Origin: an uncultured Candidatus Saccharibacteria bacterium
Lineage (GTDB): Bacteria > Patescibacteriota > Minisyncoccia > Phycocordibacterales > UBA5272
Length of the DNA stretch: 64,000 nt
Reading direction: 5' to 3'
NCBI GenBank assembly: GCA_964621595.1
Contig: CAZUPO010000001.1
Span: 78,758-142,757, forward strand
Every line of letters starts with the position of its first letter. Positions within the stretch are counted from its first letter, which is position 1. This document shows, piece by piece, positions 11,343 to 62,938 of this stretch. Made by a program: the position numbers and the translations under genes. The notes below the pieces were generated by a model. It was not told the origin of the DNA and did not search any database. It saw only the letters and a list, made by a program, of their open reading frames with translations.

Positions 11343-11663
11343 TTACTCGCCGCGCGGTGCGCGGCGCAGATCAAGCGCGTTGATAGCGTCTAGAGCACGC
11401 CAGAAATGGTCTCTCTGCCATTTGTAGATCGCCATGATGGCGAGTTCCACCGTGACGAGACCGCAAGAAATTCCGAAGGAAGCCAAGACTTCGAGCGCCC
11501 AGTGGTGATTTCCAGCCATCAGGATGCATGCGGATCCGTAGAAGATGAGACCAGAGACCCCACTCAATATTAACAGCACCGATACCGGTAACAACATGAT
11601 GCTGTTGCCGTCCGCCTGGTCCGCCTTCTCTTGTGCGGTGGCATTTTTACTGACTTTCTTCAT
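11343..11663 (-). CDS. small membrane protein (hypothetical), in high-GC island
   Basis: 106 aa ORF with 3 predicted TM helices; local GC clearly higher than flanks. Confidence 0.45.
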   Translation of the reverse strand: MKKVSKNATAQEKADQADGNSIMLLPVSVLLILSGVSGLIFYGSACILMAGNHHWALEVLASFGISCGLVTVELAIMAIYKWQRDHFWRALDAINALDLRRAPRGE

Positions 11664-39965: not shown

Positions 39966-40892
39966 TTACACCTTCAAATACTTTCTTACAGCGAGTAGCG
40001 ACGAAACAACAGAAAGAATAACACCAGAACCAAGGAGAAGTAACGTGAGCGAGAAGAAGTGACTCATGAAATACGCATGAATATTCATCCCCTCAAAAAA
40101 GAACACTGTCTTTTTGGTGATATACATAGTTGCTGGATAAAAAATAATGAGTGTGATTGCTGTTGCTACTACAGAATAGAGAACTGATTCGACAACAAAT
40201 GGACCACGAATGAACATATTTGATGCACCTACAAGTTTCATGACTGCGATTTCATCACGATACACGAAAATAGCGAGACGAATGGTGTTATACACGATCA
40301 TACAACTCATAATAATGAACAAGATGGAGAGCCAGAATCCGACAGTATTGGTCCAACCTATGATGTTATTTAATTTATCAATACTATCTTTTAGTTGGTA
40401 ATAGTTAATCTTATCCACCGCACTTGCCTGATCCCCAAGAAGTCCAGACCCTGTTGTAAGTTGTTTTGCGATTGCTTCGTACTGTGACGTATCCTTGGCA
40501 ACAATTGAAAGAGATGCCCCGAATGGATTCTCTCCAAGTTCGTCGAGTGCCTGGAGAGTTAACTGATCACCCTCGTGACGTTTTTTGAAATCAGCGAGCG
40601 CTTGATCCCGTGTTGTTAGTTCTGCAGACTTTACTTGTGAAAGACCTCGGAGTTTTGCTTGAATGTCTTTTATTTGATCATCTGTTGCGTCCACTGTGAA
40701 GTACACACGCACGTCTACTTTTTCTTTTATCTGGTCTAGTGTGTAATCAAAAATTGCTCGTGCTAAGTAGAATGATGCAATGATCGAAAGTGTAATAGTG
40801 AGAATAAAAATAGACGAAAGAGAAACCGTCTTGTTGCGATAGAATCCTCGCAACCCTGCTACCAACACTCGTTTCCAAATAGACTTTTTCAT
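39966..40892 (-). CDS. ftsX: cell division ABC transporter permease FtsX
   Basis: 4-TM FtsX topology with large first extracytoplasmic loop; immediately downstream of ftsE. Confidence 0.75.
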   Translation of the reverse strand: MKKSIWKRVLVAGLRGFYRNKTVSLSSIFILTITLSIIASFYLARAIFDYTLDQIKEKVDVRVYFTVDATDDQIKDIQAKLRGLSQVKSAELTTRDQALADFKKRHEGDQLTLQALDELGENPFGASLSIVAKDTSQYEAIAKQLTTGSGLLGDQASAVDKINYYQLKDSIDKLNNIIGWTNTVGFWLSILFIIMSCMIVYNTIRLAIFVYRDEIAVMKLVGASNMFIRGPFVVESVLYSVVATAITLIIFYPATMYITKKTVFFFEGMNIHAYFMSHFFSLTLLLLGSGVILSVVSSLLAVRKYLKV

Positions 40893-40897
40893 AATAA

Positions 40898-41578
40898 TTA
40901 CATTGTAAATCGGCCAGACTTCTGATCACGAACAACTCTACCATCTTCCATAGTGATCACCCTTCGACCGAGATTATCAACAATCCCCTTATTGTGGGTT
41001 GTGAGTATCACTGTTGTACCAAGATCATTAATCTTTTTTAAAATCTGAACAATATCGTACGTATTAAGAGGGTCGAGGTTTCCAGTCGGTTCATCAGCGA
41101 TAATAACTTCTGGTCGATTGATGATTGCACGTGCAATCGCCACACGCTGTTGTTCACCGCCGGAGAGCTGGTGAGGGAAGTGATGCATTTTATTTTTCAA
41201 ATCGACGAGATCAAGTACGTGTGGAACATCTTCTGATATTTCATCATCATGGCGACCGGCAGCCTCCATTGCAAATGCCACGTTTTCGTATGCTGTTTTA
41301 TTTGGGATAAGGCGAAAATCTTGGAATACTACCCCGACTTTGCGTCGATAGTTTGTCATATCCTTTCCACGCAACTCATGAATGTTATCAGAATTGAATG
41401 ATACAACGCCCTCTGTTGGCTCTTCTTCAGCCAAAAGCAGTTTAATGAGAGTTGTTTTCCCAGCACCAGAGTGACCGACAATAGAGACAAGCTCCCCTTT
41501 GTTTACAACCAGGGAGACATTGTCGAGAACCTTGTTACCATTTTCGTATTCCTTAGATACTCGGTCAAAGTAAAGCAT
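40898..41578 (-). CDS. ftsE: cell division ABC transporter ATP-binding protein FtsE
   Basis: Walker [13 protein letters not shown] signature [14 protein letters not shown], Walker [12 protein letters not shown]; start [11 protein letters not shown] at 41578. Confidence 0.85.
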
Positions 41579-41617
41579 GAAAATAGTGTACCACACATCT
41601 ATGCTATGTTTGTGAAT

Positions 41618-41659
41618 AAAAATGGTTAACGCCGCGACCCCCTTGCGAGAATCGCGGCG
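41618..41659 (-). terminator. GC-rich hairpin terminator for 41702-42190 gene
   Basis: CGCCGCGA...TCGCGGCG stem followed by T-run on minus strand; shares CCCCTTGCG core with terminator at 42303-42334. Confidence 0.55.
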
Positions 41660-41701
41660 CATTGCGTAAACGGGCTCCTCCAGTGCCCAAAAAGAGAACT
41701 T

Positions 41702-42190
41702 TTAGATCTTTATCTGCTGATCCCAAGTAGTCGCCCAGAAATTGGGTGACCTCATGGAGTCCAAAAGACCCTGTTGAAGCAACTCGAACACCTTGGATAC
41801 GGCGACGAGTTTGTACTTGCGGCCGGGCACATGAGGATACGGATCGCGTATCACCATGTAGATCACCTTGATCCGCTCCTGGATGGGAACGTCCTCGCCA
41901 GCATGTAGCAAGAGGCAAAGGACATAATCGACGGCGATCCCTTTCCGCTTGATCTCCAATTCGATCCGCGGGTGCACGTATCCCTCCGGGCGATCAACGA
42001 GGAAGGAGTCACTGAGGCCACGCTCTTCTAGTTGCTTGAGCGCATAGCAGAGGAGACTGCTCAGTCCGAGTGAGAAGGTACGGTCGAACTTGCTCAGCAC
42101 CTTATCGCCCATCGGACGACGATTGATCACCTCCACTCCCTCGCCGCCCGAGAAAAATTCCCGCGGGAGGCGTTGATGGTTCATGTACAT
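41702..42190 (-). CDS. high-GC island protein A (unknown family; paralog of next gene)
   Basis: 162 aa ORF in ~58% GC DNA; shares P-x-EFF...G(V/I)(E/D)V N-terminus, I.LEI.R block and FW..W(D/E) C-terminus with 42353-42961 product. Confidence 0.5.
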   Translation of the reverse strand: MYMNHQRLPREFFSGGEGVEVINRRPMGDKVLSKFDRTFSLGLSSLLCYALKQLEERGLSDSFLVDRPEGYVHPRIELEIKRKGIAVDYVLCLLLHAGEDVPIQERIKVIYMVIRDPYPHVPGRKYKLVAVSKVFELLQQGLLDSMRSPNFWATTWDQQIKI

Positions 42191-42302
42191 AATTCACCTC
42201 ACGGGGTTACGGGTTGGTGGGAAAAACGAACTACACCTGACTACAAAACTACCCCAACTTGTACGTGAAGTCAACGGCACTGGATACTTACCAGAGAATT
42301 TC

Positions 42303-42334
42303 AAAACGCCGCATCCCCTTGCGGGGGCGCGGCG
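42303..42334 (-). terminator. GC-rich hairpin terminator for 42353-42961 gene
   Basis: CGCCGCATCCCC-ttgc-GGGGGCGCGGCG followed by TTTT on minus strand. Confidence 0.55.
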
Positions 42335-42352
42335 TTCTTCTGGTCCTGCTGG

Positions 42353-42961
42353 TCAGACTGCGACCGTTTCTTCCCAGTGGAACCAGAACGTCTGTTGCTC
42401 TCTTCCCAATCGCGCAAGGTACGCGAGCACGTGATCGGTGCGACAACCATTAATCGCCTCACGCTCATGTATCGAGAGGCTCCGCGACACCCCGATCACG
42501 GTGTACGGATGGAGGCGCGACTTCTGCGCTGGCGCGGAATCATCGCCCACTCGACGCGGAGGATCTTCGCGAACCAGCGAAAGATAGTGAACGGAGAGAT
42601 GCATGTGGTGATCGGCGTAGAACACGTGATACAACCGATCCACGACATCGCCCCGTACGATCTCCAGGTGAATCTCGTCATAGAACTCGAGATCGTTATA
42701 CCTCCTGGTGATGTACCAGTCCACCTGCTTTTCGATGATCGGGCAGACTTCGCGAGCGATGTGCAACTGGGAGCCATTCATTGAGCGGATGGAAGGGTTG
42801 TTGCTCACGGGTTCAGTGGACGGGTTGCTACCACCCGACGTCGCGTGTGCGCGCTTGAAGAGGCCGGGTCTCACGACATCGATTCCGTCGCGGAGGGTGA
42901 AGAACTCGTTGGGCATAGGCATGGCGGCATCCTTTTCTGGTGTTGACCTAATCGCAACCAT
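42353..42961 (-). CDS. high-GC island protein B (unknown family; paralog of 41702-42190)
   Basis: 202 aa ORF, likely start MPMPNEFF (~42922) after GGA SD-like; see paralog evidence. Confidence 0.5.
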   Translation of the reverse strand: MVAIRSTPEKDAAMPMPNEFFTLRDGIDVVRPGLFKRAHATSGGSNPSTEPVSNNPSIRSMNGSQLHIAREVCPIIEKQVDWYITRRYNDLEFYDEIHLEIVRGDVVDRLYHVFYADHHMHLSVHYLSLVREDPPRRVGDDSAPAQKSRLHPYTVIGVSRSLSIHEREAINGCRTDHVLAYLARLGREQQTFWFHWEETVAV

Positions 42962-43058
42962 TCGCGCAGGATGTGCGAGAGGTGCAATTTGATCAGAGGT
43001 TGGTGGAACTGCTTACTATACAAACTACCAAAAAATAGGCCCAAGATCAAACGACACC

Positions 43059-43937
43059 TTACGCGAGCATGCGCTCTGCCTCGATGAACTCATCAAGTTC
43101 CCCCTTTTCAAGTACAGCCTCTACATTACTTGTTTCCACATCAGTACGGTGATCCTTTACCATTTTGTATGGATGAAGAACATAGGAGCGAATCTGATTC
43201 CCCCACTCGATCTCGGTTGTCTTTGCAACTGATAATCCTTCCAACTCTTTCTTGCGACGATCCTCTTCTAGGGTAAATAATTTTGCTTGTAATACTTCGA
43301 GTGCTTTCTGTTTATTTTGTTCTTGATGTCTCTCTGTTGCGATCGATACTGCTATGTTTGTTGGTATGTGTACTATTCGCACCGCTGTCTCACGTTTGTT
43401 AACATTTTGCCCTCCTGGACCACTGGCACGAGAAGTTTCTACACGTAATTCATCGGGAGGAATAACTTTTCTTTCTTGTGGCGGAATGATGGGCAACACC
43501 TCCACAAGAGCAAATGATGTATGTCGCTTTGCTTGTGCATTAAACGGAGAAATACGTACCAATCTATGTACACCACTTTCTTTTTTTAACATCCCATATA
43601 CACCGCTACCGTGTATCTCTATGGTTACGTTACGATAACCACCGTGATCATTTGTATGTTCATGAAGTATTGAGCGAGTAAACCCTTTGCGTGCACAGAG
43701 TGCTTCGTACATCCGAAGTAGCATCAGGGCAAAGTCCTCGCTATCATCTCCCCCGGCACCTGCCAAGATAGAAAGTACAGCCCCGCCTTTGTCGATAGCA
43801 CTTACCCCATCTCGTTTTTCTTTTAATTGTTTTATTGTTTTTATAACCTCTTGTGCATGATCCTTGTCATTCCAAAAGGAGACCTCGTTCATCTGTGCTT
43901 CAAGTTCCGCAATCTGTTCATCAATCGTTTTATCCAT
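43059..43937 (-). CDS. prfB: peptide chain release factor 2 (short N-terminal domain, no frameshift evident)
   Basis: SPF tripeptide (RISPFNAQ) and GGQ motif (SGPGGQNVNK); 292 aa. Confidence 0.8.
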   Translation of the reverse strand: MDKTIDEQIAELEAQMNEVSFWNDKDHAQEVIKTIKQLKEKRDGVSAIDKGGAVLSILAGAGGDDSEDFALMLLRMYEALCARKGFTRSILHEHTNDHGGYRNVTIEIHGSGVYGMLKKESGVHRLVRISPFNAQAKRHTSFALVEVLPIIPPQERKVIPPDELRVETSRASGPGGQNVNKRETAVRIVHIPTNIAVSIATERHQEQNKQKALEVLQAKLFTLEEDRRKKELEGLSVAKTTEIEWGNQIRSYVLHPYKMVKDHRTDVETSNVEAVLEKGELDEFIEAERMLA

Positions 43938-45115: not shown

Positions 45116-45493
45116 TTACTTCTTGCGGGTACGCAAACGTTCCAGGAGCACACGGCCCCAGGCTCGTATTCCCCTCACCTCCTCCCTTTTTTTCCTCTCC
45201 TCTCGAGTTATGACCTTTTCGCGTCCGCGGGACGTTATCTTGAAGACAACGAAACGCCCCTTCTCTCCGGTATAGTTCCTTACCACATCCCCCGAGGTCC
45301 TCAACTCCTCGAGTTCCCGGAGGAACGAGTTGCGTGGCGGTGACAAAACGATGACACTACCGCCATTTCGATCTTCTGCACTATGCTTTTGCGGGGGTCG
45401 TTCTTGTTCATAGTCCGCGATGAGTTCGTCCACGGAAAGACCTTGACCCTCCCTTGCCAGCAAGCGCAGAAGGACGATTTGAATCTGCTTCAT
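45116..45493 (-). CDS. winged-helix DNA-binding protein (hypothetical regulator), high-GC
   Basis: 125 aa; MKQIQIVLLRLLAREGQGLSVDELIADY HTH-like start, basic C-terminus; GC-rich codon usage. Confidence 0.4.
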   Translation of the reverse strand: MKQIQIVLLRLLAREGQGLSVDELIADYEQERPPQKHSAEDRNGGSVIVLSPPRNSFLRELEELRTSGDVVRNYTGEKGRFVVFKITSRGREKVITREERKKREEVRGIRAWGRVLLERLRTRKK

Positions 45494-45601: not shown

Positions 45602-45674
45602 GAGCCAGAGGGCGGGATCGAACCGCCGACCTTTTCGTTACGAGTGAAATGCTCTACCAACTGAGCTACTCTGG
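45602..45674 (-). tRNA. tRNA-Thr (anticodon CGU)
   Basis: Revcomp folds: acceptor GCCAGAG/CTCTGGC, D-arm GCTC/GAGC, anticodon loop CTCGTAA, T-arm GGCGG-TTCGATC-CCGCC. Confidence 0.85.
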
Positions 45675-45720
45675 CTTTTTATTGTCGTACTATTGTACTA
45701 GTATTTTAATTTCATCACAA

Positions 45721-45760: not shown

Positions 45761-45988
45761 TCAGTGTTGCGACGCGAAGCGCTGCAATGCCAGCACCTCT
45801 GCAGGCCCGAGATCTCGTGGCGATGCGCCGATATGTTCTGGCGTACCGACATGCAGAGCGTGAATCATCGGAGCGCAGAATCTCTCCACCGCACGCTGAC
45901 ATTCAACGCTGTGCACAGGTGCATCGTTTTTCGGACTGGAGATCCTGCCCGACAGTGACGCCTGTGCAGCAAACATGAAATCTTGCAT
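45761..45988 (-). CDS. possible small ORF in high-GC segment (coding status uncertain)
   Basis: 75 aa ORF; several overlapping ORFs on both strands in this ~60% GC stretch, so frame choice is weak. Confidence 0.2.
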   Translation of the reverse strand: MQDFMFAAQASLSGRISSPKNDAPVHSVECQRAVERFCAPMIHALHVGTPEHIGASPRDLGPAEVLALQRFASQH

Positions 45989-58159: not shown

Positions 58160-60106
58160 TTACCCCAATAATGCGTAATCGATGAGGCGTAGTTCGAGGT
58201 TTGCATTTTTTACTTGTATACGGACTGGGGTGCCTATCTTGTACTCAATCCCTGTTCTTTCGCCAAATACTCGTCCCCCTTTTTGATCGTATACATAAAA
58301 ATCATTTCCAAGGTCGCGCAACTTCACCATACCCTCACACTTACTCTTCTTTTCTTCGACATAGATTCCCCACTCGGAAACGCCGGTTACCATTCCTTCG
58401 AACTCTTGCCCTATGCGATACGACATATACTCAACCTGCTTATACTTGATACTTCCACGCTCTGCGTCAGAGGCTTCTTTTTCTCGACGTGATGCTTTGA
58501 CACACAATGATTCATAGAGTCCGCGCTCTTCAACATTTGGATATTTGTCTTCGACTACTTGCATGAGGAGTCGATGAGTAAGGACATCTGGATAGCGACG
58601 AATAGGAGATGTGAAGTGAGAGTAGAAAGAAAATGCAAGGCCATAGTGACCAATGTTTTTTGTGCTATACACCGCCTTTGCCATCGAGCGAGTAATGTGA
58701 ACCTGCAGAAGTGCTTTCTCAGGTCTATCCCCCATCTTCTCAAGAAGCGCATTTAGATCCTGTGATGGTATGAGACCGTCTGTAAAACGCACATGATACC
58801 CAAGACCACGTATGTAGAGATCAAGTTCATGCATACGATCAGGATCTGGCTTGTCGTGAATACGATACACGCACACCGCATTTCCTTCGCCATTCTTTTT
58901 CTCCTGCATTTCTGTAATGTACTTGCTAACATATTTGTTTGCTAAAAGCATGAACTCCTCGACAAGTTTGTGTGTGTCCCCTCGCTCTTTTGTATAGACA
59001 TCTACCGGCACACCCTTCTCGTCTAACTTAAATTTAACTTCTTGCGTTTCGAGTTGAAGTGCGCCATGTGCAAAACGCTCTTTCGTAAGATTCTTCGCAA
59101 TCTTGTTCAAGATGTTTAACTCTTCGTAGAAGTCACCGTTGTGGGTGTCTAGGGTTGTTTGCGCATCCTCGTAGGTGTATCGACGATGTGAGTTAATAAG
59201 TGAACGCCCGTACCACTCATTGTACACTTTACCCGCATCATCGATCTCAAGTACACATGACATAACAAGTCGATCTTCCCCTTGCACCAAAGAACATAAA
59301 TCATTTGAGAGAACTTCTGGAAGCATAGGAATGCAGCGATCAACGAGATACACACTTGTCTCGCGTGCTATGGCTTCTTCATCAAGAGCAGTACCTGGGC
59401 GAACATAGTAAGAAACATCTGCGATATGAATACCAACTTCGTAATGACCATTATCTAGCTTTTTGAACGATAGGGCATCATCAAAATCCTTCGCATCAAG
59501 CGGATCAATGGTAAATGTTGGTATAGAGCGAAAATCACGACGACCTTGTTTGTCTTCCTCGGTAATACCACGCTTTTTTATAGTTTCAGCCTCTTCATTG
59601 ACTTGCTTGCCATGTTCATCACTGAAGCCACGCTCAAGGGCGTACGCAAGCATTTCTGCATCATTCTCTCCGGGGTGCCCGAGGACGAACGCAACTTCCC
59701 CGATTGGAGACTTCTTTGCATCTTTCCAGTCAGTGATACGTGCCACAATCTTCATCCCCGGTGCAGCGTCGTGAAGAGCATCATGTGGAATGAGTATATC
59801 TGTATACATGCGTTTGTCATCGGGAACGAGGAAATACATCCCGTTATCTGCTTCGAGAATACCGGCGTATCCATGCTTGTTACGCTCAACGATACTTGTG
59901 ACAGTTCCGTAAAGTTCATCTTCGCCGCGGAGATTTTTCTTCTTACCAAATATTTCAACTTCAACAATGTCGTGATGTAATGCAGTATGCAAGTGACTGT
60001 GGTCAATGAAAATAGCACCCTCACCATTTTCCATGAGGTCGGCTACTCGCACGTAACCATCTTTTTTTGATGTAATACTTATTTGCCCTGTATGACGGTG
60101 ATCCAT
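58160..60106 (-). CDS. rnr: ribonuclease R (RNB family 3'-5' exoribonuclease) with C-terminal S1 domain
   Basis: 648 aa; N-terminal cold-shock-like region, central RNB domain, C-terminal S1-like beta-barrel (GMVTGVSEWGIYVEE...). Confidence 0.8.
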   Translation of the reverse strand: MDHRHTGQISITSKKDGYVRVADLMENGEGAIFIDHSHLHTALHHDIVEVEIFGKKKNLRGEDELYGTVTSIVERNKHGYAGILEADNGMYFLVPDDKRMYTDILIPHDALHDAAPGMKIVARITDWKDAKKSPIGEVAFVLGHPGENDAEMLAYALERGFSDEHGKQVNEEAETIKKRGITEEDKQGRRDFRSIPTFTIDPLDAKDFDDALSFKKLDNGHYEVGIHIADVSYYVRPGTALDEEAIARETSVYLVDRCIPMLPEVLSNDLCSLVQGEDRLVMSCVLEIDDAGKVYNEWYGRSLINSHRRYTYEDAQTTLDTHNGDFYEELNILNKIAKNLTKERFAHGALQLETQEVKFKLDEKGVPVDVYTKERGDTHKLVEEFMLLANKYVSKYITEMQEKKNGEGNAVCVYRIHDKPDPDRMHELDLYIRGLGYHVRFTDGLIPSQDLNALLEKMGDRPEKALLQVHITRSMAKAVYSTKNIGHYGLAFSFYSHFTSPIRRYPDVLTHRLLMQVVEDKYPNVEERGLYESLCVKASRREKEASDAERGSIKYKQVEYMSYRIGQEFEGMVTGVSEWGIYVEEKKSKCEGMVKLRDLGNDFYVYDQKGGRVFGERTGIEYKIGTPVRIQVKNANLELRLIDYALLG

Positions 60107-60209: not shown

Positions 60210-60644
60210 ATGGCCACATTGTACCTGTTTCAAAATCTCATGCGGCATAAAGAAGCCCTCATGCACGTGAGAATGTTTGACCCGGGCGTTCTCTGGAGCG
60301 GGATGATGGAGCGCATCGGGGCGGATCCGTCCGACCTATCGCCGGCACTCATCGTTGGAGATACCGACGACGATGCACATCGCACCGTGCAGAACAATGG
60401 CGGGAAGACGGTCGAGACGAAAGAACCTATCAAGTTCTTCCGCTTCGATACCATGGCACTGCGCGACGAGGTGCGTGAGCGGATCACGAAACTTCGTCCG
60501 CCTGTGCTCTGGAGCGGAATGATGGAACCGGCGCAAGTCGATGGCGATCCAGACCATTCCCCGGTCCTCCTCGTTAGCGATTCGGTGACCGCCTTCATGT
60601 GCGCAAACGGTGGCGGCACCGAAATCAGGGACGCAGAGATCTGA
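60210..60644 (+). CDS. high-GC small protein with internal VLWSGMME repeat (unknown function)
   Basis: 144 aa ORF in ~60% GC DNA with own promoter-like, SD and strong terminator; duplicated motif (P)VLWSGMME(R/P). Confidence 0.5.
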   Translation: MATLYLFQNLMRHKEALMHVRMFDPGVLWSGMMERIGADPSDLSPALIVGDTDDDAHRTVQNNGGKTVETKEPIKFFRFDTMALRDEVRERITKLRPPVLWSGMMEPAQVDGDPDHSPVLLVSDSVTAFMCANGGGTEIRDAEI

Positions 60645-60709: not shown

Positions 60710-62938
60710 CTACGCAACCATTTGCTCGGCCTGTTTGAAATCAATCGAAAGTAAACGACTAGCACCATCGACACCAATTGTTACTCCATAGAGCATATCG
60801 CAATGGCTCATAGTTTCGCGATTATGGGTAATGATGAGTAATTTACTATGCTCTGCTAAGCGACGAAGCATAGCACCATACTTGCGGGCATTTGACTCAT
60901 CTAGTGGGGCATCTGTTTCATCGAGTACCATAAATGGTGGTGGTGTTATCGAAGACATCGCAAAAAGAAGTGCAATAGAAACAAGTGCACGTTCGCCACC
61001 AGAGAACATATTTATTTCTTTTACCTTTTTATTCGGAAGAGTCACATCGATCTCAATACCCTGCTCGTGAATTTCCTTTCCCTCTTCGTCAATTTTTGTA
61101 AGTGTTATGACACTGAGTTTACCCTTGCCACCAACAAATACTTCCGCGAAAAATTCACTAAATACTTTGGATACCTGGGCCACACCAGATGAAAACTTTT
61201 CTGTGAGAGTTTTCTCCAAATCATCTACTAAGGTGAGAAGTTTTTCTTCGGATGACTTTATGTCCGCCAACTCTTTCAAGAGATACTCGTCTCGTTCTTT
61301 GGTCGTCTTATACTCCTGAATGATTTCATCTCTATTAGGAACACTAGCTTCCTCAATACGAAGTTTGGATCGCTCAATTGCACGTAAAAGATCATGCTTT
61401 GGAATTGTTTTGTACTTTTCTTCACTCTGCTCTTGGTGGTACGCTGTAATACTACGACCAACGATCATAATACCCTCCTGAAGAAGACTCTCGAAATGCT
61501 GCTTGCGAAGTGCATGCTCGCCCTCTTCTTGCTTGCGAAGTGCAATAACGCTCTCAAGTTCTCGTAATTTACTTTCCAACTTCATCACCTTCTTTTCCTC
61601 TTCATGACGAGAAGAAATAGTTTCCTGAGAAGCTTGATCAAGTGACTCTATCTTACCTTGAACAAACGTGATTTCGTTATTGATATCTCCACTTCGTTTT
61701 TCATGATCTTTGATATTCTCGCTGAGTAAATCGATGTCGTGCTTGATTGCATCTTTATTGATTTTTCCTGCGTCAGCATACTTAGAAAAAAATGTTTTAG
61801 AAATACCCTGCAATTGAGTGGCGTGATCTTGTGCATGTTCATGATCACCACTTAGAATGGAAGAGTGGATGCGTTCAGTGTGATCTTCTATTTTTTCTTT
61901 TACTTCAGTGAATTCGCCGCGTGGAATAGTGATATCGTGTATAACATCTTCTTCATGGAACTGCTTCTCCAGGTAGGATCTCTCCGCTTCTAGTCGACCA
62001 AGTGTTTTTAGCATTTGATCTTTGCGTTCAATGAGAGAACGAAGTTCCGCTTGGAGTGTATATTTCTCCTGCGAAGACATCTCTTCGACATTAGGCTTTT
62101 TTTCTTTAAGAATTTGTAACTCTTTTCGTATTGAATCAGTAACCAAAAGAAGAGATGAGGATGTGCCCTGCTCACGGATGCGCTCATCAAGGAGATGTAA
62201 CTCCTCTTCTTCACGTGTAAGGTATGCAACGAGAAGCCTGTGTAAATTTTTTCTTTCTTCTTCTTGGGACTCGATTTTTTTCACCTGGCGCTCGAGAAGT
62301 AAGAGGTGGGGTTTTATCTCAGTGCGCAAGAGTTCTACTTCACGAACATGGATTTTTACCCGCTCTAGTTTACGCTTACTCTCATTCAGGCGCATATGGT
62401 AGACACGTAGACCAAGCGCATCTTCTATGGCTTCTTTCTTGTCGCGTGGAGATGCCAAGAGTATTCTATCCGCCTCCCCCTGGGATACAAGAGTATGAGC
62501 ACTGCTCCCAATCCCCGCAAACGAGAGCAACTCTTGAACATCCTTAAGACGAATTTTTGCTTCATTTAAAAGATAATCACTTGTCCCATCACTATAAATG
62601 ACTCGTGAGAGCGTAAGTTCATCATACACAAGAAACGGTGCGAGTTCTTCACTTGCATCTCGTGTATCACCTCTCTCACGGTTATCGATAACCATGGTGA
62701 CACTAGCACGAGAGAGAGAAGAGAGATGCTCTGAGCCTTTGAAGATCACATCGGTGCTGGCTTTTCCACGCATACTCTTCATCGATTGCTCACCCAGAAC
62801 AAAACGTATTGCTTCAGCGATGTTGGATTTACCAGAACCGTTTGGACCGACAACACCAGTAACTCGATGAGTAACATCGATTGTAGTTTTCTTGGCAAAG
62901 GATTTGAACCCTTGGATAGTTATATGTGAGAGACGCAT
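60710..62938 (-). CDS. smc: SMC-family chromosome partition ATPase (short, ~742 aa)
   Basis: N-terminal Walker A VVGPNGSGKSNIAEAI, long coiled coils, C-terminal LSGGERALVSIALLFA signature + Walker B FMVLDETDAPLD. Confidence 0.7.
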   Translation of the reverse strand: MRLSHITIQGFKSFAKKTTIDVTHRVTGVVGPNGSGKSNIAEAIRFVLGEQSMKSMRGKASTDVIFKGSEHLSSLSRASVTMVIDNRERGDTRDASEELAPFLVYDELTLSRVIYSDGTSDYLLNEAKIRLKDVQELLSFAGIGSSAHTLVSQGEADRILLASPRDKKEAIEDALGLRVYHMRLNESKRKLERVKIHVREVELLRTEIKPHLLLLERQVKKIESQEEERKNLHRLLVAYLTREEEELHLLDERIREQGTSSSLLLVTDSIRKELQILKEKKPNVEEMSSQEKYTLQAELRSLIERKDQMLKTLGRLEAERSYLEKQFHEEDVIHDITIPRGEFTEVKEKIEDHTERIHSSILSGDHEHAQDHATQLQGISKTFFSKYADAGKINKDAIKHDIDLLSENIKDHEKRSGDINNEITFVQGKIESLDQASQETISSRHEEEKKVMKLESKLRELESVIALRKQEEGEHALRKQHFESLLQEGIMIVGRSITAYHQEQSEEKYKTIPKHDLLRAIERSKLRIEEASVPNRDEIIQEYKTTKERDEYLLKELADIKSSEEKLLTLVDDLEKTLTEKFSSGVAQVSKVFSEFFAEVFVGGKGKLSVITLTKIDEEGKEIHEQGIEIDVTLPNKKVKEINMFSGGERALVSIALLFAMSSITPPPFMVLDETDAPLDESNARKYGAMLRRLAEHSKLLIITHNRETMSHCDMLYGVTIGVDGASRLLSIDFKQAEQMVA

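What the first reader, a model, noticed from the sequence alone, without database searches (positions are those of the whole stretch)
41590..43040. 1.4-kb high-GC island between ftsE and prfB carrying two diverged tandem paralogs of an unrecognised protein family, each with its own similar hairpin terminator
GC content jumps from about 38% to about 58% exactly at the ftsE start (41578) and returns to low GC before prfB (43059).

The two ORFs are 162 aa and 202 aa. Both begin P-x-EFF-(S/T)xx(E/D)G(V/I)(E/D)V(I/V). They share an I.LEI.R block and a C-terminal FW..W(D/E) motif, so they are paralogs.

The two terminators share the core GCCGC...CCCCTTGCG...GCGGCG, which points to duplication of a gene-plus-terminator unit. 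The composition indicates horizontal acquisition from a high-GC donor. I cannot assign a function; the pattern could equally fit a toxin/immunity-like or defence module.
Basis: seen in the sequence. Interest (0 to 1): 0.66.

Follow-up and report, generated by a model that had tools for sequence, protein, structure and literature searches.

The report
Foreign high-GC two-gene islet, function unknown
A 1.4-kb stretch of clearly foreign, GC-rich DNA sits between two housekeeping genes of a tiny-genome (Parcubacteria) bacterium and carries two small self-contained genes with no relatives in any database, so it is a real but fairly ordinary case of recently imported genes of unknown function.

Summary
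Window 41628-42922 is 55.9% GC against 41.2% for the window (z about 4; tetranucleotide distance z = 6). It holds two minus-strand ORFs, ORF1 (162 aa) and ORF2 (202 aa, more likely 189 aa). Both are truly coding: GC1/2/3 is .60/.34/.70 and .61/.41/.71, against host GC3 of about .35.

Each ORF is its own expression unit:
- a promoter-like TTGAYY-N17-TAGTTT, found only twice in 64 kb, once before each ORF;
- a Shine-Dalgarno site;
- a 14-15 bp hairpin terminator with a GCAA loop.

The host is a Parcubacteria (candidate phyla radiation) bacterium. In most related loci prfB and ftsE are adjacent. The closest insert-free relative has a 153-nt gap. About a quarter to a third carry other, unrelated inserts there (MazEF, HEPN/NTase, GIY-YIG, RT), so the gap is an accessory-gene hotspot.

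Neither protein matched any family library, solved structure, or phage, plasmid or viral collection. Neither had a relative among 5.8 billion protein clusters. ORF1 also had none in an exhaustive scan of 1.84 billion representatives. Structure models failed.

Paralogy is only weakly supported (N-terminal motif, P about 0.02-0.03). Best reading: recently acquired, phage-moron-like ORFan cassettes. There is no evidence for a toxin/immunity or defence role. Interest is low to moderate.

The parts
43022..43050 (-). Promoter-like element of the ORF2 cassette: TTGATC, 17 nt, TAGTTT. It begins 9 nt after the prfB stop codon.
   Evidence: The pattern TTGAYY-N17-TAGTTT occurs exactly twice in the 64-kb window, here and before ORF1, against 0.09 expected. 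Geometry confirmed. Promoter function is inferred, not shown.
42930..42935 (-). Shine-Dalgarno-like AAAGGA, 7 nt upstream of the ATG at 42922
   Evidence: Read from the sequence. It favours the 189-aa start, which the NCBI/ENA gene calls also use.
42353..42922 (-). ORF2, 189 aa (the ORF is open up to the ATG at 42961, giving 202 aa). It is an ORFan. Residues about 20-50 form a low-complexity linker.
   Evidence: GC1/2/3 = .61/.41/.71, periodicity p = 8e-9. Only a self-hit among 5.8 billion clusters. No family, PDB, phage, plasmid or viral match.
42297..42338 (-). Terminator 2. Hairpin AACGCCGCG-C-CCCC GCAA GGGG-A-UGCGGCGUU, followed by UUUGAAAUU.
   Evidence: dG = -34.9 kcal/mol, z = -5.3, 0 of 200 shuffles fold as well. 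Inverted repeat I9.
42246..42274 (-). Promoter-like element of the ORF1 cassette: TTGACT, 17 nt, TAGTTT
   Evidence: same pattern as before ORF2. Function is inferred.
42195..42200 (-). Shine-Dalgarno-like GAGGTG upstream of the ORF1 start codons (ATG at 42190 and ATG at 42184)
   Evidence: Read from the sequence.
41702..42190 (-). ORF1, 162 aa, an ORFan
   Evidence: GC1/2/3 = .60/.34/.70, periodicity p = 1e-10. Only a self-hit in the word-indexed search and in the exhaustive phmmer scan of 1.84 billion representatives. No family, PDB, phage, plasmid or viral match.
41614..41660 (-). Terminator 1. Hairpin GCGCCGCGAUUCUC GCAA GGGGGUCGCGGCG, followed by UUAACCAUUUUUAUU.
   Evidence: dG = -32.7 kcal/mol for the 102-nt context, z = -2.6. 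Shares CGCCGCG...GCAAGGGG...GCGGCG with terminator 2.
41586..41594 (-). Extended -10 promoter-like element of ftsE (TGGTACACT), 7 nt before the ftsE ATG at 41578. It is native and not part of the islet. It marks the islet's downstream limit.
   Evidence: The same element sits just upstream of the ftsE start in the two nearest relatives, at about the same short distance: TGGTATACT in L009 and TGTTATACT in L089. Inference from conservation.

Best explanation
The segment from about 41614 to 43050 is a recently acquired foreign islet. It sits in the gap between prfB and the ftsEX operon of a Parcubacteria (Patescibacteria / candidate phyla radiation) chromosome.

The islet consists of two tandem, autonomous expression cassettes in the same orientation as the flanking genes. 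Each cassette has four parts:
1. a sigma-70-type promoter-like element (TTGAYY-N17-TAGTTT);
2. a leader with a Shine-Dalgarno site;
3. a small cytoplasmic protein gene (ORF2, 189 aa, then ORF1, 162 aa);
4. a strong intrinsic terminator with a GCAA tetraloop.

This is the architecture described for phage 'morons': extra genes with their own promoter and terminator and deviant GC content, inserted between genes that are adjacent in relatives. Here it lies in a bacterial core-gene neighbourhood rather than a prophage.

**How it fits in the locus.** The islet lies between the prfB stop codon and ftsE's own conserved extended -10 promoter. It therefore leaves both housekeeping units intact, and its terminators insulate ftsEX from read-through.

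**Origin.** Both genes came together from one source of roughly 55-60% GC, most likely an unsampled mobile element or virus. If they are duplicates, the duplication is older than the transfer.

**What is shown and what is inferred.**
- Shown: composition, coding status, cassette anatomy, absence from relatives, hotspot behaviour of the site, and absence of homologues.
- Inferred: promoter activity, the moron-like way of functioning, the kind of donor, and any protein function.

**Function.** My best guess is accessory, conflict-related cargo such as phage exclusion or another mobile-element-derived function. That rests only on the company kept at this hotspot in other genomes.
For: **Composition.**
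- Island GC is .559 against .412 for the window, z about 4. Tetranucleotide distance z = 6.0.

**Coding status and foreign origin.**
- GC3 is .70/.71 against a host value of about .35, with near-host GC1 and GC2. Periodicity p = 1e-10 and 8e-9.
- Log-likelihood per codon for ORF1 is -1.11 under ORF2's usage and -1.39 under host usage. For ORF2 it is -1.16 under ORF1's usage and -1.37 under host usage.
- Arg/(Arg+Lys) is .57 and .86, against a host mean of .42.

**Cassette anatomy.**
- The promoter-like pattern is found only at the two expected places, with 0.09 expected by chance.
- Both terminators fold strongly and resemble each other.

**Not an assembly artefact.** The same junctions occur in 8 assemblies from JGI, Logan and ENA samples at 99.6% identity or more.

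**An insertion.**
- prfB and ftsE are adjacent in most of the related loci where both genes could be scored (about 70 of 80 genome loci, 62 of 80 metagenome loci). The median gap is about 80 nt in the metagenome set.
- The nearest relative without an insert, L089, has a 153-nt gap.

**A hotspot.** Other genomes carry unrelated cargo in the same gap:
- MazE+MazF (L106);
- NTase+HEPN (L037);
- GIY-YIG (L116);
- a reverse transcriptase (L111);
- 23S_rRNA_IVP (L055).

**ftsE keeps its own promoter.** The extended -10 element is conserved in L009 and L089.

**No homologues.**

**Literature.**
- Moron definition: own promoter and terminator, GC content different from the neighbouring genes (PMC3594210).
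- HGT is common in Patescibacteria and can reach 13% of genome length (PMC12455944).
Against: - No phage, integrase, transposase or repeat boundary marks the islet, so the insertion mechanism and the kind of donor are unknown.
- Promoter and terminator activity are predicted only. TAGTTT matches the -10 consensus at 3 of 6 positions, and the generic promoter scan did not report it.
- All recovered copies are near-identical (99.6% identity or more) and the protein sequences are essentially unchanged. There is therefore no evidence of purifying selection and no presence/absence polymorphism.
- The proteins could be non-functional passengers.
- No donor lineage was found. No homologue exists even in GC-rich genomes among 15 billion proteins. 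That is odd for ordinary bacterial donors and is only indirectly explained by proposing an unsampled mobile element.
- Structure models are unusable (pLDDT 40 and 37).
Confidence: 0.7

Rival explanations
1. A novel two-component conflict module (toxin-antitoxin, toxin-immunity or anti-phage defence), in which ORF1 and ORF2 act together.
For: - The prfB-ftsE gap holds conflict-type cargo in other Parcubacteria: MazEF, HEPN/NTase, GIY-YIG and a reverse transcriptase.
- The two small genes were acquired together and have identical composition.
- ORF1 has a D66...E79-I-K81 string that loosely resembles a PD-(D/E)xK nuclease motif (read from the sequence).
Against: - A strong terminator (-35 kcal/mol) and a separate promoter-like element lie between the genes, so they are not an operon.
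- The two proteins look like weak paralogues of each other, not a toxin plus a cognate partner.
- No PADLOC, Pfam or NCBIfam hit at a significant level. The best was PADLOC PDC-M02B at E = 0.042 over 35 residues.
- ORF2 has V where ORF1 has the K of the putative ExK motif.
Confidence: 0.15
2. The GC-rich stretch is a structured non-coding RNA or other non-coding element, as GC-rich intergenic islands in AT-rich genomes often are. On this view the ORFs are chance open frames favoured by high GC.
For: - High-GC intergenic islands in low-GC genomes are a classical signature of structured RNAs (general knowledge).
- GC-rich DNA gives long chance ORFs. A 135-aa antisense ORF is also open at 42377-42784.
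Against: - Three-base periodicity of GC is extreme and has the coding pattern GC3 > GC1 > GC2 in exactly the frames of the two ORFs (p = 1e-10 and 8e-9).
- The ORFs fill the island, and each has a Shine-Dalgarno site, a promoter-like element and a terminator.
- No Rfam match, even at E <= 1.
Confidence: 0.03
3. An assembly or binning chimera: a fragment of a GC-rich organism wrongly joined into a Parcubacteria contig.
For: There is an abrupt composition change with no mobility genes or boundary repeats.
Against: - The identical arrangement, with both junctions, is found in independent assemblies from at least three sources (several JGI samples, two Logan SRA runs, one ENA assembly). Identity is 99.6-100% over up to 9.7 kb.
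- The boundaries coincide with functional signals (prfB stop, ftsE promoter), not with arbitrary break points.
Confidence: 0.02
4. Two unrelated foreign genes that share only a short N-terminal module of about 18 residues (for example a common interaction or targeting peptide), rather than full-length paralogues from a cassette duplication.
For: - hhalign and BLASTP align only residues 6-23 of ORF1 with 1-18 of ORF2, at P about 0.02-0.03.
- The exhaustive phmmer search with ORF1 did not recover ORF2.
Against: - Further short motifs are colinear: I-x-LEI-x-R...VD, DP, Y-x-[LV]-[VI]-x-VS and FW..W[DE].
- Both low-confidence models give the same order of elements: long helix, three strands, one strand, two helices.
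- The promoter-like elements and terminators of the two cassettes are also alike.
Confidence: 0.3

Closest known systems
Phage 'morons' (Hendrix/Juhala concept; reviewed in PMC3594210)
   Same: - One small gene per unit.
- Each unit has its own promoter and its own factor-independent terminator.
- GC content differs from the neighbouring genes.
- The unit is inserted between two genes that are adjacent in related genomes.
- The genes are often ORFans.
   Different: - The islet lies between chromosomal housekeeping genes (prfB and ftsEX) of a Parcubacteria bacterium, not in a phage or prophage.
- No phage genes lie nearby.
- Expression signals are predicted, not measured.
Genomic islets, or cargo of core-genome integration hotspots (small horizontally acquired inserts between conserved genes)
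   Same: - Atypical composition.
- Absent from the nearest relatives.
- The same intergenic site is occupied by different accessory genes in different genomes, including MazEF, HEPN/NTase, GIY-YIG and a reverse transcriptase.
   Different: - The islet is GC-richer than its host by 15 points. In the other occupied gaps examined, the insert is within about 5 points of its own genome.
- No integrase, tRNA or direct repeats mark the boundaries.
Type II toxin-antitoxin pairs, which are frequent occupants of this same hotspot
   Same: Two small adjacent genes on the same strand, acquired as a unit.
   Different: - The two genes are separately transcribed units with a terminator between them.
- The partners resemble each other weakly.
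- No similarity to any toxin or antitoxin family.

Membership tests
Phage moron | Own promoter upstream of the extra gene | tested here: inconclusive
   TTGAYY-N17-TAGTTT is present before both ORFs and nowhere else in 64 kb, with 0.09 expected. The -10 hexamer matches the consensus at only 3 of 6 positions, and the generic scan missed it. No expression data.
Phage moron | Own factor-independent terminator downstream | tested here: met
   Both ORFs are followed by hairpins with 14-15 bp stems and GCAA loops, then a U-rich tract. dG is -33 and -35 kcal/mol, and z is -2.6 and -5.3.
Phage moron | GC content different from the surrounding genes | tested here: met
   55.9% against about 43% in ftsE and prfB. 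GC3 is .70 against .35-.38.
Phage moron | Inserted between genes that are adjacent in related genomes | tested here: met
   prfB and ftsE are 6-130 nt apart in most related loci. L089 has a 153-nt gap.
Phage moron | Resides in a phage or prophage genome | tested here: not met
   - The flanks are prfB, ftsE, ftsX, a Pif1-like helicase and an NTP-transferase.
- No PHROG match for either ORF beyond E = 0.15.
- No hit in the phage or IMG/VR collections.
Type II toxin-antitoxin module | Two genes co-transcribed as one operon | tested here: not met
   A strong terminator (42305-42336) and a second promoter-like element (42246-42274) lie in the 162-nt spacer.
Type II toxin-antitoxin module | Similarity to a known toxin or antitoxin family | tested here: not met
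   No Pfam, NCBIfam or PADLOC match for either protein. The only PADLOC hit has E = 0.042.
Known anti-phage defence systems (PADLOC-DB v2) | Match to a model of a known or candidate defence protein | tested here: not met
   ORF1 matches PDC-M02B at E = 0.042 over 35 residues only. ORF2 has no match.
Integron gene cassette | An attC site (imperfect palindrome of 57-141 nt with RYYYAAC and GTTRRRY core sites) at the 3' end, with an IntI integrase nearby | tested here: not met
   - The hairpins are about 32 nt. Read directly, they lack both core sites: T2 is flanked by GAAGAAC and GTTTTGA, and T1 ends in GTTAACC.
- No integrase domain appears among the genes annotated within +/-6 kb.
PD-(D/E)xK nuclease superfamily | Conserved D...(D/E)xK catalytic motif on an alpha-beta-beta-beta-alpha-beta core | tested here: inconclusive
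   - ORF1 has D66 and E79-I-K81, but ORF2 has V at the K position.
- No Pfam or PDB sequence match.
- The models are too poor (pLDDT 40 and 37) for fold assignment, and Foldseek gives nothing at E <= 0.001.
Horizontally acquired genomic island (general) | Atypical composition and absence from close relatives | tested here: met
Horizontally acquired genomic island (general) | Mobility hallmarks: integrase or transposase, flanking direct repeats, tRNA target | tested here: not met
   - No flanking direct or inverted repeats at the boundaries.
- No tRNA within 2.5 kb.
- No mobility gene in the neighbourhood.

The most novel reading that the evidence does not exclude
The islet may be one instance of a so far undescribed habit of this Parcubacteria lineage. 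On this reading the lineage collects several tiny, self-contained, GC-rich single-gene cassettes (promoter, ORFan, terminator) from one GC-rich source. The source could be the organism it lives on, or a virus or plasmid of that organism. The cassettes would be inserted between core genes without any integrase, for example through DNA uptake and recombination.

The 64-kb window holds at least five such GC3-outlier ORFs with similar codon usage. About 1020 ORFs from 112 related loci hold only three. If they all trace to one donor, their composition could point to the unknown partner of this uncultured bacterium. The ORF1/ORF2 family would then be a new, lineage-restricted protein fold.
Probability: 0.12. 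Interest if true: 0.6.

Novelty: new member of a known kind. Interest (0 to 1): 0.3.

Why it matters
- It is a clean, well-delimited example of recent gene import into a streamlined candidate-phyla-radiation genome, with complete, self-sufficient expression signals.
- It shows that the prfB-ftsE junction is a recurrent landing site for accessory and selfish genes in Parcubacteria.
- The two proteins have no detectable relative among about 15 billion predicted proteins, so they are true dark matter.
- If the several GC-rich ORFans of this genome share a donor, they could hint at the ecological partner or virus of an uncultured episymbiont.
- Without a function or a donor, the finding remains descriptive.

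Tried and rejected
1. **Family and structure look-ups.** Pfam, PHROGs, PADLOC, NCBIfam and PDB sequence searches for both proteins found nothing significant. A PDB profile search with the ORF1+ORF2 alignment also found nothing.
2. **Homologue searches.** Word-indexed searches gave only self-hits for both proteins. So did the exhaustive phmmer scan for ORF1.
   - tblastn against phages, plasmids and IMG/VR found nothing.
   - The single plasmid hit (E = 0.4, Aureibacter) lies antisense to the annotated CDS and is spurious.
3. **Structure.** Single-sequence AlphaFold2 models have pLDDT 40.0 and 36.9. Foldseek against the PDB gave no match at E <= 0.001, with TM <= 0.22. I draw no fold conclusion.
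4. **Non-coding RNA reading.** Rfam at gathering score and at E <= 1 gave nothing. Codon periodicity settles the region as coding.
5. **Selection test.** All eight recovered copies are 99.6% identical or more, so dN/dS and presence/absence polymorphism could not be assessed.
6. **Boundary repeats.** No flanking direct or inverted repeats sit at the boundaries. The 10-11-nt matches lie inside ftsE and prfB and are at chance level.
7. **Integron attC reading of the hairpins.** Rejected, because the core sites are absent.
8. **Shared 9-mer CCACCAACC.**
   - It lies upstream of both ORFs and also in the L089 prfB-ftsE gap.
   - An alignment of the upstream regions gave no convincing wider homology, so it stays unexplained.
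9. **RNA structure in the leaders.**
   - The prfB-ORF2 spacer folds only mildly better than shuffles (z = -2.1).
   - The ORF1 leader does not (z = -0.1).
10. **Last homologue search.** That ORF is also an ORFan.
Full report
**What is there**

The window is a low-GC genome (41.2% GC). The flanking proteins place it in Parcubacteria/Paceibacterota, part of the candidate phyla radiation. The best FtsE matches are Parcubacteria-type MAGs at 62-92% identity.

On the minus strand the local gene order is prfB (43059-43937), ORF2, ORF1, ftsE (40898-41578), ftsX (39966-40892).

Composition marks the segment out clearly.
- The segment 41628-42922 is 55.9% GC, against 42.7% for ftsE and 43.0% for prfB.
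- The two 500-nt windows covering 42001-43000 are the highest of 128 (z = 3.9 and 4.2).
- The tetranucleotide distance to the rest of the window is 6 standard deviations above that of equal-sized windows.

The rise begins at 41628, not at the ftsE start. The flanks are about 43% GC rather than 38%.

**Coding or not**

GC by codon position is .60/.34/.70 for ORF1 and .61/.41/.71 for ORF2. Host genes give about .55/.35/.35. The periodicity is highly significant, with chi-square p = 1e-10 and 8e-9, and has the orientation expected of real genes (GC3 > GC1 > GC2).

Almost all of the GC excess sits at third positions. That is what un-ameliorated imported genes look like.

Two further measures agree.
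- Each ORF predicts the other's synonymous codon usage better than host usage does: -1.11 against -1.39, and -1.16 against -1.37 log-likelihood per codon.
- The proteins are Arg-over-Lys biased (.57 and .86, against a host mean of .42).

Rfam finds nothing in the segment, even at E <= 1. A structured-RNA reading is therefore rejected.

**Anatomy**

Each ORF is a complete expression unit.

*Upstream.* A promoter-like TTGAYY-N17-TAGTTT occurs exactly twice in the 64-kb window, with 0.09 expected. One copy is at 43022-43050 before ORF2, and the other at 42246-42274 before ORF1. Both ORFs have Shine-Dalgarno-like sites:
- AAAGGA lies 7 nt before the ATG at 42922. This favours a 189-aa ORF2, as NCBI and ENA call it.
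- GAGGTG lies before the ORF1 start codons.

*Downstream.* Each ORF is followed by a hairpin with a 14-15 bp stem and a GCAA tetraloop, then a U-rich tract.

| Terminator | dG (kcal/mol) | z |
|---|---|---|
| T1, after ORF1 | -32.7 | -2.6 |
| T2, after ORF2 | -34.9 | -5.3 |

The two hairpins share CGCCGCG...C-GCAA-GGGG...GCGGCG.

*Limits of the islet.* It starts 9 nt after the prfB stop codon. It ends just before an extended -10 element (TGGTACACT) that lies 7 nt before the ftsE start. The nearest relatives keep this element just upstream of ftsE, at about the same short distance: TGGTATACT in L009 and TGTTATACT in L089. The insert therefore occupies the natural gap between two transcription units and should not disturb either. 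This last point is inference.

**An insertion, at a hotspot**

The same locus, with both junctions, occurs in eight assemblies from JGI, Logan and ENA samples at 99.6-100% identity. It is therefore not a chimera, but it represents a single population.

Across 80 genome loci and 80 metagenome loci of related bacteria, prfB and ftsE could both be scored in about 70 and 62 loci respectively. They are usually adjacent.
- The gap is 6-130 nt in most loci.
- The median is about 80 nt in the metagenome set.

The two nearest relatives lack ORF1 and ORF2.

| Relative | FtsE identity | prfB-ftsE gap |
|---|---|---|
| L089 | 89% | 153 nt, no insert |
| L009 | 92% | 2 kb of unrelated, low-GC genes (30% GC) |

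About a quarter to a third of the loci have something in the gap, and the cargo is diverse:
- MazE+MazF (L106);
- nucleotidyltransferase+HEPN (L037);
- a GIY-YIG nuclease (L116);
- a reverse transcriptase (L111);
- a 23S-rRNA-IVP four-helix protein (L055);
- several other ORFs.

None of the other inserts examined is more than about 5 GC points above its own genome. The site is an accessory-gene hotspot, and this occupant is unusual only in how GC-rich it is.

**The proteins**

Neither protein matches Pfam, PHROGs, PADLOC, NCBIfam or PDB sequences at a meaningful level.

Homologue searches found only the proteins themselves.
- The search of 5.8 billion clusters returned only self-hits for both.
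- An exhaustive phmmer scan of 1.84 billion representatives with ORF1 also returned only itself.
- tblastn against phage and plasmid records and IMG/VR found nothing real.

Single-sequence AlphaFold2 models are unusable (pLDDT 40 and 37). Foldseek on them gives no match at E <= 0.001. The fold and biochemical function remain unknown.

**Paralogy**

- Smith-Waterman z = 2.75, with 31 of 2000 shuffles reaching the score.
- Semi-global z = 1.9.
- BLASTP E = 0.011 for the N-terminal 15 residues.
- hhalign P = 0.027 for 18 residues.
- ORF1's exhaustive search did not pick up ORF2.

Three things favour homology:
- the colinearity of five short motifs over a 21%-identical alignment;
- the same order of secondary-structure elements in both poor models;
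- the matched promoter-like and terminator elements.

I put full-length paralogy at roughly 60%. The alternative is two different proteins that share only an N-terminal module.

If they are duplicates, the duplication long predates the transfer. The proteins have diverged to about 21% identity, while both retain the same donor-like composition.

**How it most likely works**

The architecture matches what phage biologists call morons. These are extra genes with their own promoter and terminator and deviant GC content, sitting between genes that are adjacent in relatives (PMC3594210). Here the setting is a bacterial core-gene neighbourhood, so the islet works like a moron but is not a member of that class.

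HGT into Patescibacteria is well documented, at up to 13% of genome length, with competence, conjugation and transduction all proposed as routes (PMC12455944).

There are no integrase, transposase, tRNA or boundary repeats here. The route of insertion is therefore unknown. Uptake followed by illegitimate or homology-assisted recombination is my inference.

On function I can only say that the hotspot's other occupants are mostly conflict or selfish genes. A classical two-gene toxin-antitoxin or toxin-immunity operon is unlikely, because a strong terminator and a second promoter-like element separate the genes.

**Wider pattern, outside the finding**

The same window contains further small GC3-rich ORFs between core genes.

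| Coordinates | Strand | Length | Notes |
|---|---|---|---|
| 11343-11663 | - | 106 aa | membrane protein |
| 45116-45493 | - | 125 aa | helix-turn-helix-like |
| 45761-45988 | - | 75 aa | weak periodicity, p = 0.1 |
| 60210-60644 | + | 144 aa | internal repeat; also an ORFan |

The 125-aa and 75-aa ORFs flank tRNA-Thr. Several of these ORFs have their own hairpin terminators. All fit the ORF1/ORF2 codon usage better than the host's.

With one criterion (GC3 at least 0.25 above the locus median), the window has 4 outliers among about 60 ORFs. About 1020 ORFs in 112 related loci have 3. GC-rich ORFan cassettes are therefore a recurrent feature of this particular genome.

**Verdict**

This is a real feature, correctly described, and correctly read as a foreign islet carrying an unrecognised protein family. 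Paralogy is plausible but unproven. No functional class can be assigned.

It is a new member of a familiar kind (a small horizontally acquired ORFan islet at a hotspot, with moron-like design), and interest is low to moderate. The most novel reading not excluded is that several such cassettes came from one GC-rich partner or virus.

Noticed in passing
window 60210-60644 (+), between RNase R (58160-60106) and smc (60710-62938): A 144-aa GC-rich ORF (GC1/2/3 = .62/.41/.70, periodicity p = 3e-6). It has an internal repeat (P[GP]VLWSGMME...DP...SP.L[IL]V.D, twice) and a hairpin terminator. It has no Pfam family, and only itself was found among 5.8 billion clusters.
   Followed up: partly
window 45116-45493 (-) and 45761-45988 (-), flanking tRNA-Thr(cgt) at 45602-45675: - Two more GC-rich small ORFs, each followed by a strong hairpin.
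- The 125-aa ORF is helix-turn-helix-like, with GC3 .60-.61 and a CCCCGGCC-GUGA-GGCCGGGG terminator.
- The 75-aa ORF shows only weak codon periodicity (p = 0.1), so it may not be coding.
- The 75-aa ORF shares a 24-residue stretch with the 144-aa ORF at 60210 (46% identity). It also matches a 75-aa ORF in L093 (1026-1253).
   Followed up: partly
window 11343-11663 (-): A 106-aa GC3-rich ORF (.55/.41/.66) encoding a predicted membrane protein. It has no Pfam family and lies between a tRNA-Ala region and a low-GC gene.
   Followed up: no
L011 3855-4619, L064 4368-4700, L079 3228-3686: These three are the only GC3-outlier ORFs among about 1020 ORFs in 112 related Parcubacteria loci. All three lie just upstream of prfB and have no Pfam family. 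The L011 ORF (254 aa) has GC3 0.80 in a genome whose median GC3 is 0.20.
   Followed up: partly
window 42212-42220 and 42998-43006 (-); L089 3931-3939: The 9-mer CCACCAACC occurs three times in the window, with 0.21 expected. Two copies are in the leaders of ORF1 and ORF2. It also occurs in the 153-nt prfB-ftsE gap of the insert-free relative L089. No wider alignment could be established, and its meaning is unknown.
   Followed up: partly
window 42975-42994 and 43045-43064: A 20-nt imperfect inverted repeat (75% complementary) spans the prfB stop codon and the ORF2 leader, enclosing the putative ORF2 promoter. The 161-nt region folds only mildly better than shuffles (z = -2.1).
   Followed up: partly
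L106 3313-3968; L037 5114-5975; L116 1401-1889; L111 2965-3987; L055 562-942: The prfB-ftsE gap of other Parcubacteria holds several kinds of cargo, which marks the junction as a recurrent accessory-gene hotspot:
- MazE+MazF;
- nucleotidyltransferase+HEPN;
- a GIY-YIG nuclease;
- a reverse transcriptase;
- a 23S-rRNA-intervening-sequence protein.
   Followed up: yes
window 43059-43937 (-): The RF2 gene (prfB; SPF and GGQ motifs are present) encodes only 292 aa as a single ORF. Only 113 nt lie upstream of it before the next gene. It therefore appears to lack the usual N-terminal extension and the programmed +1 frameshift site. This was not examined further.
   Followed up: no
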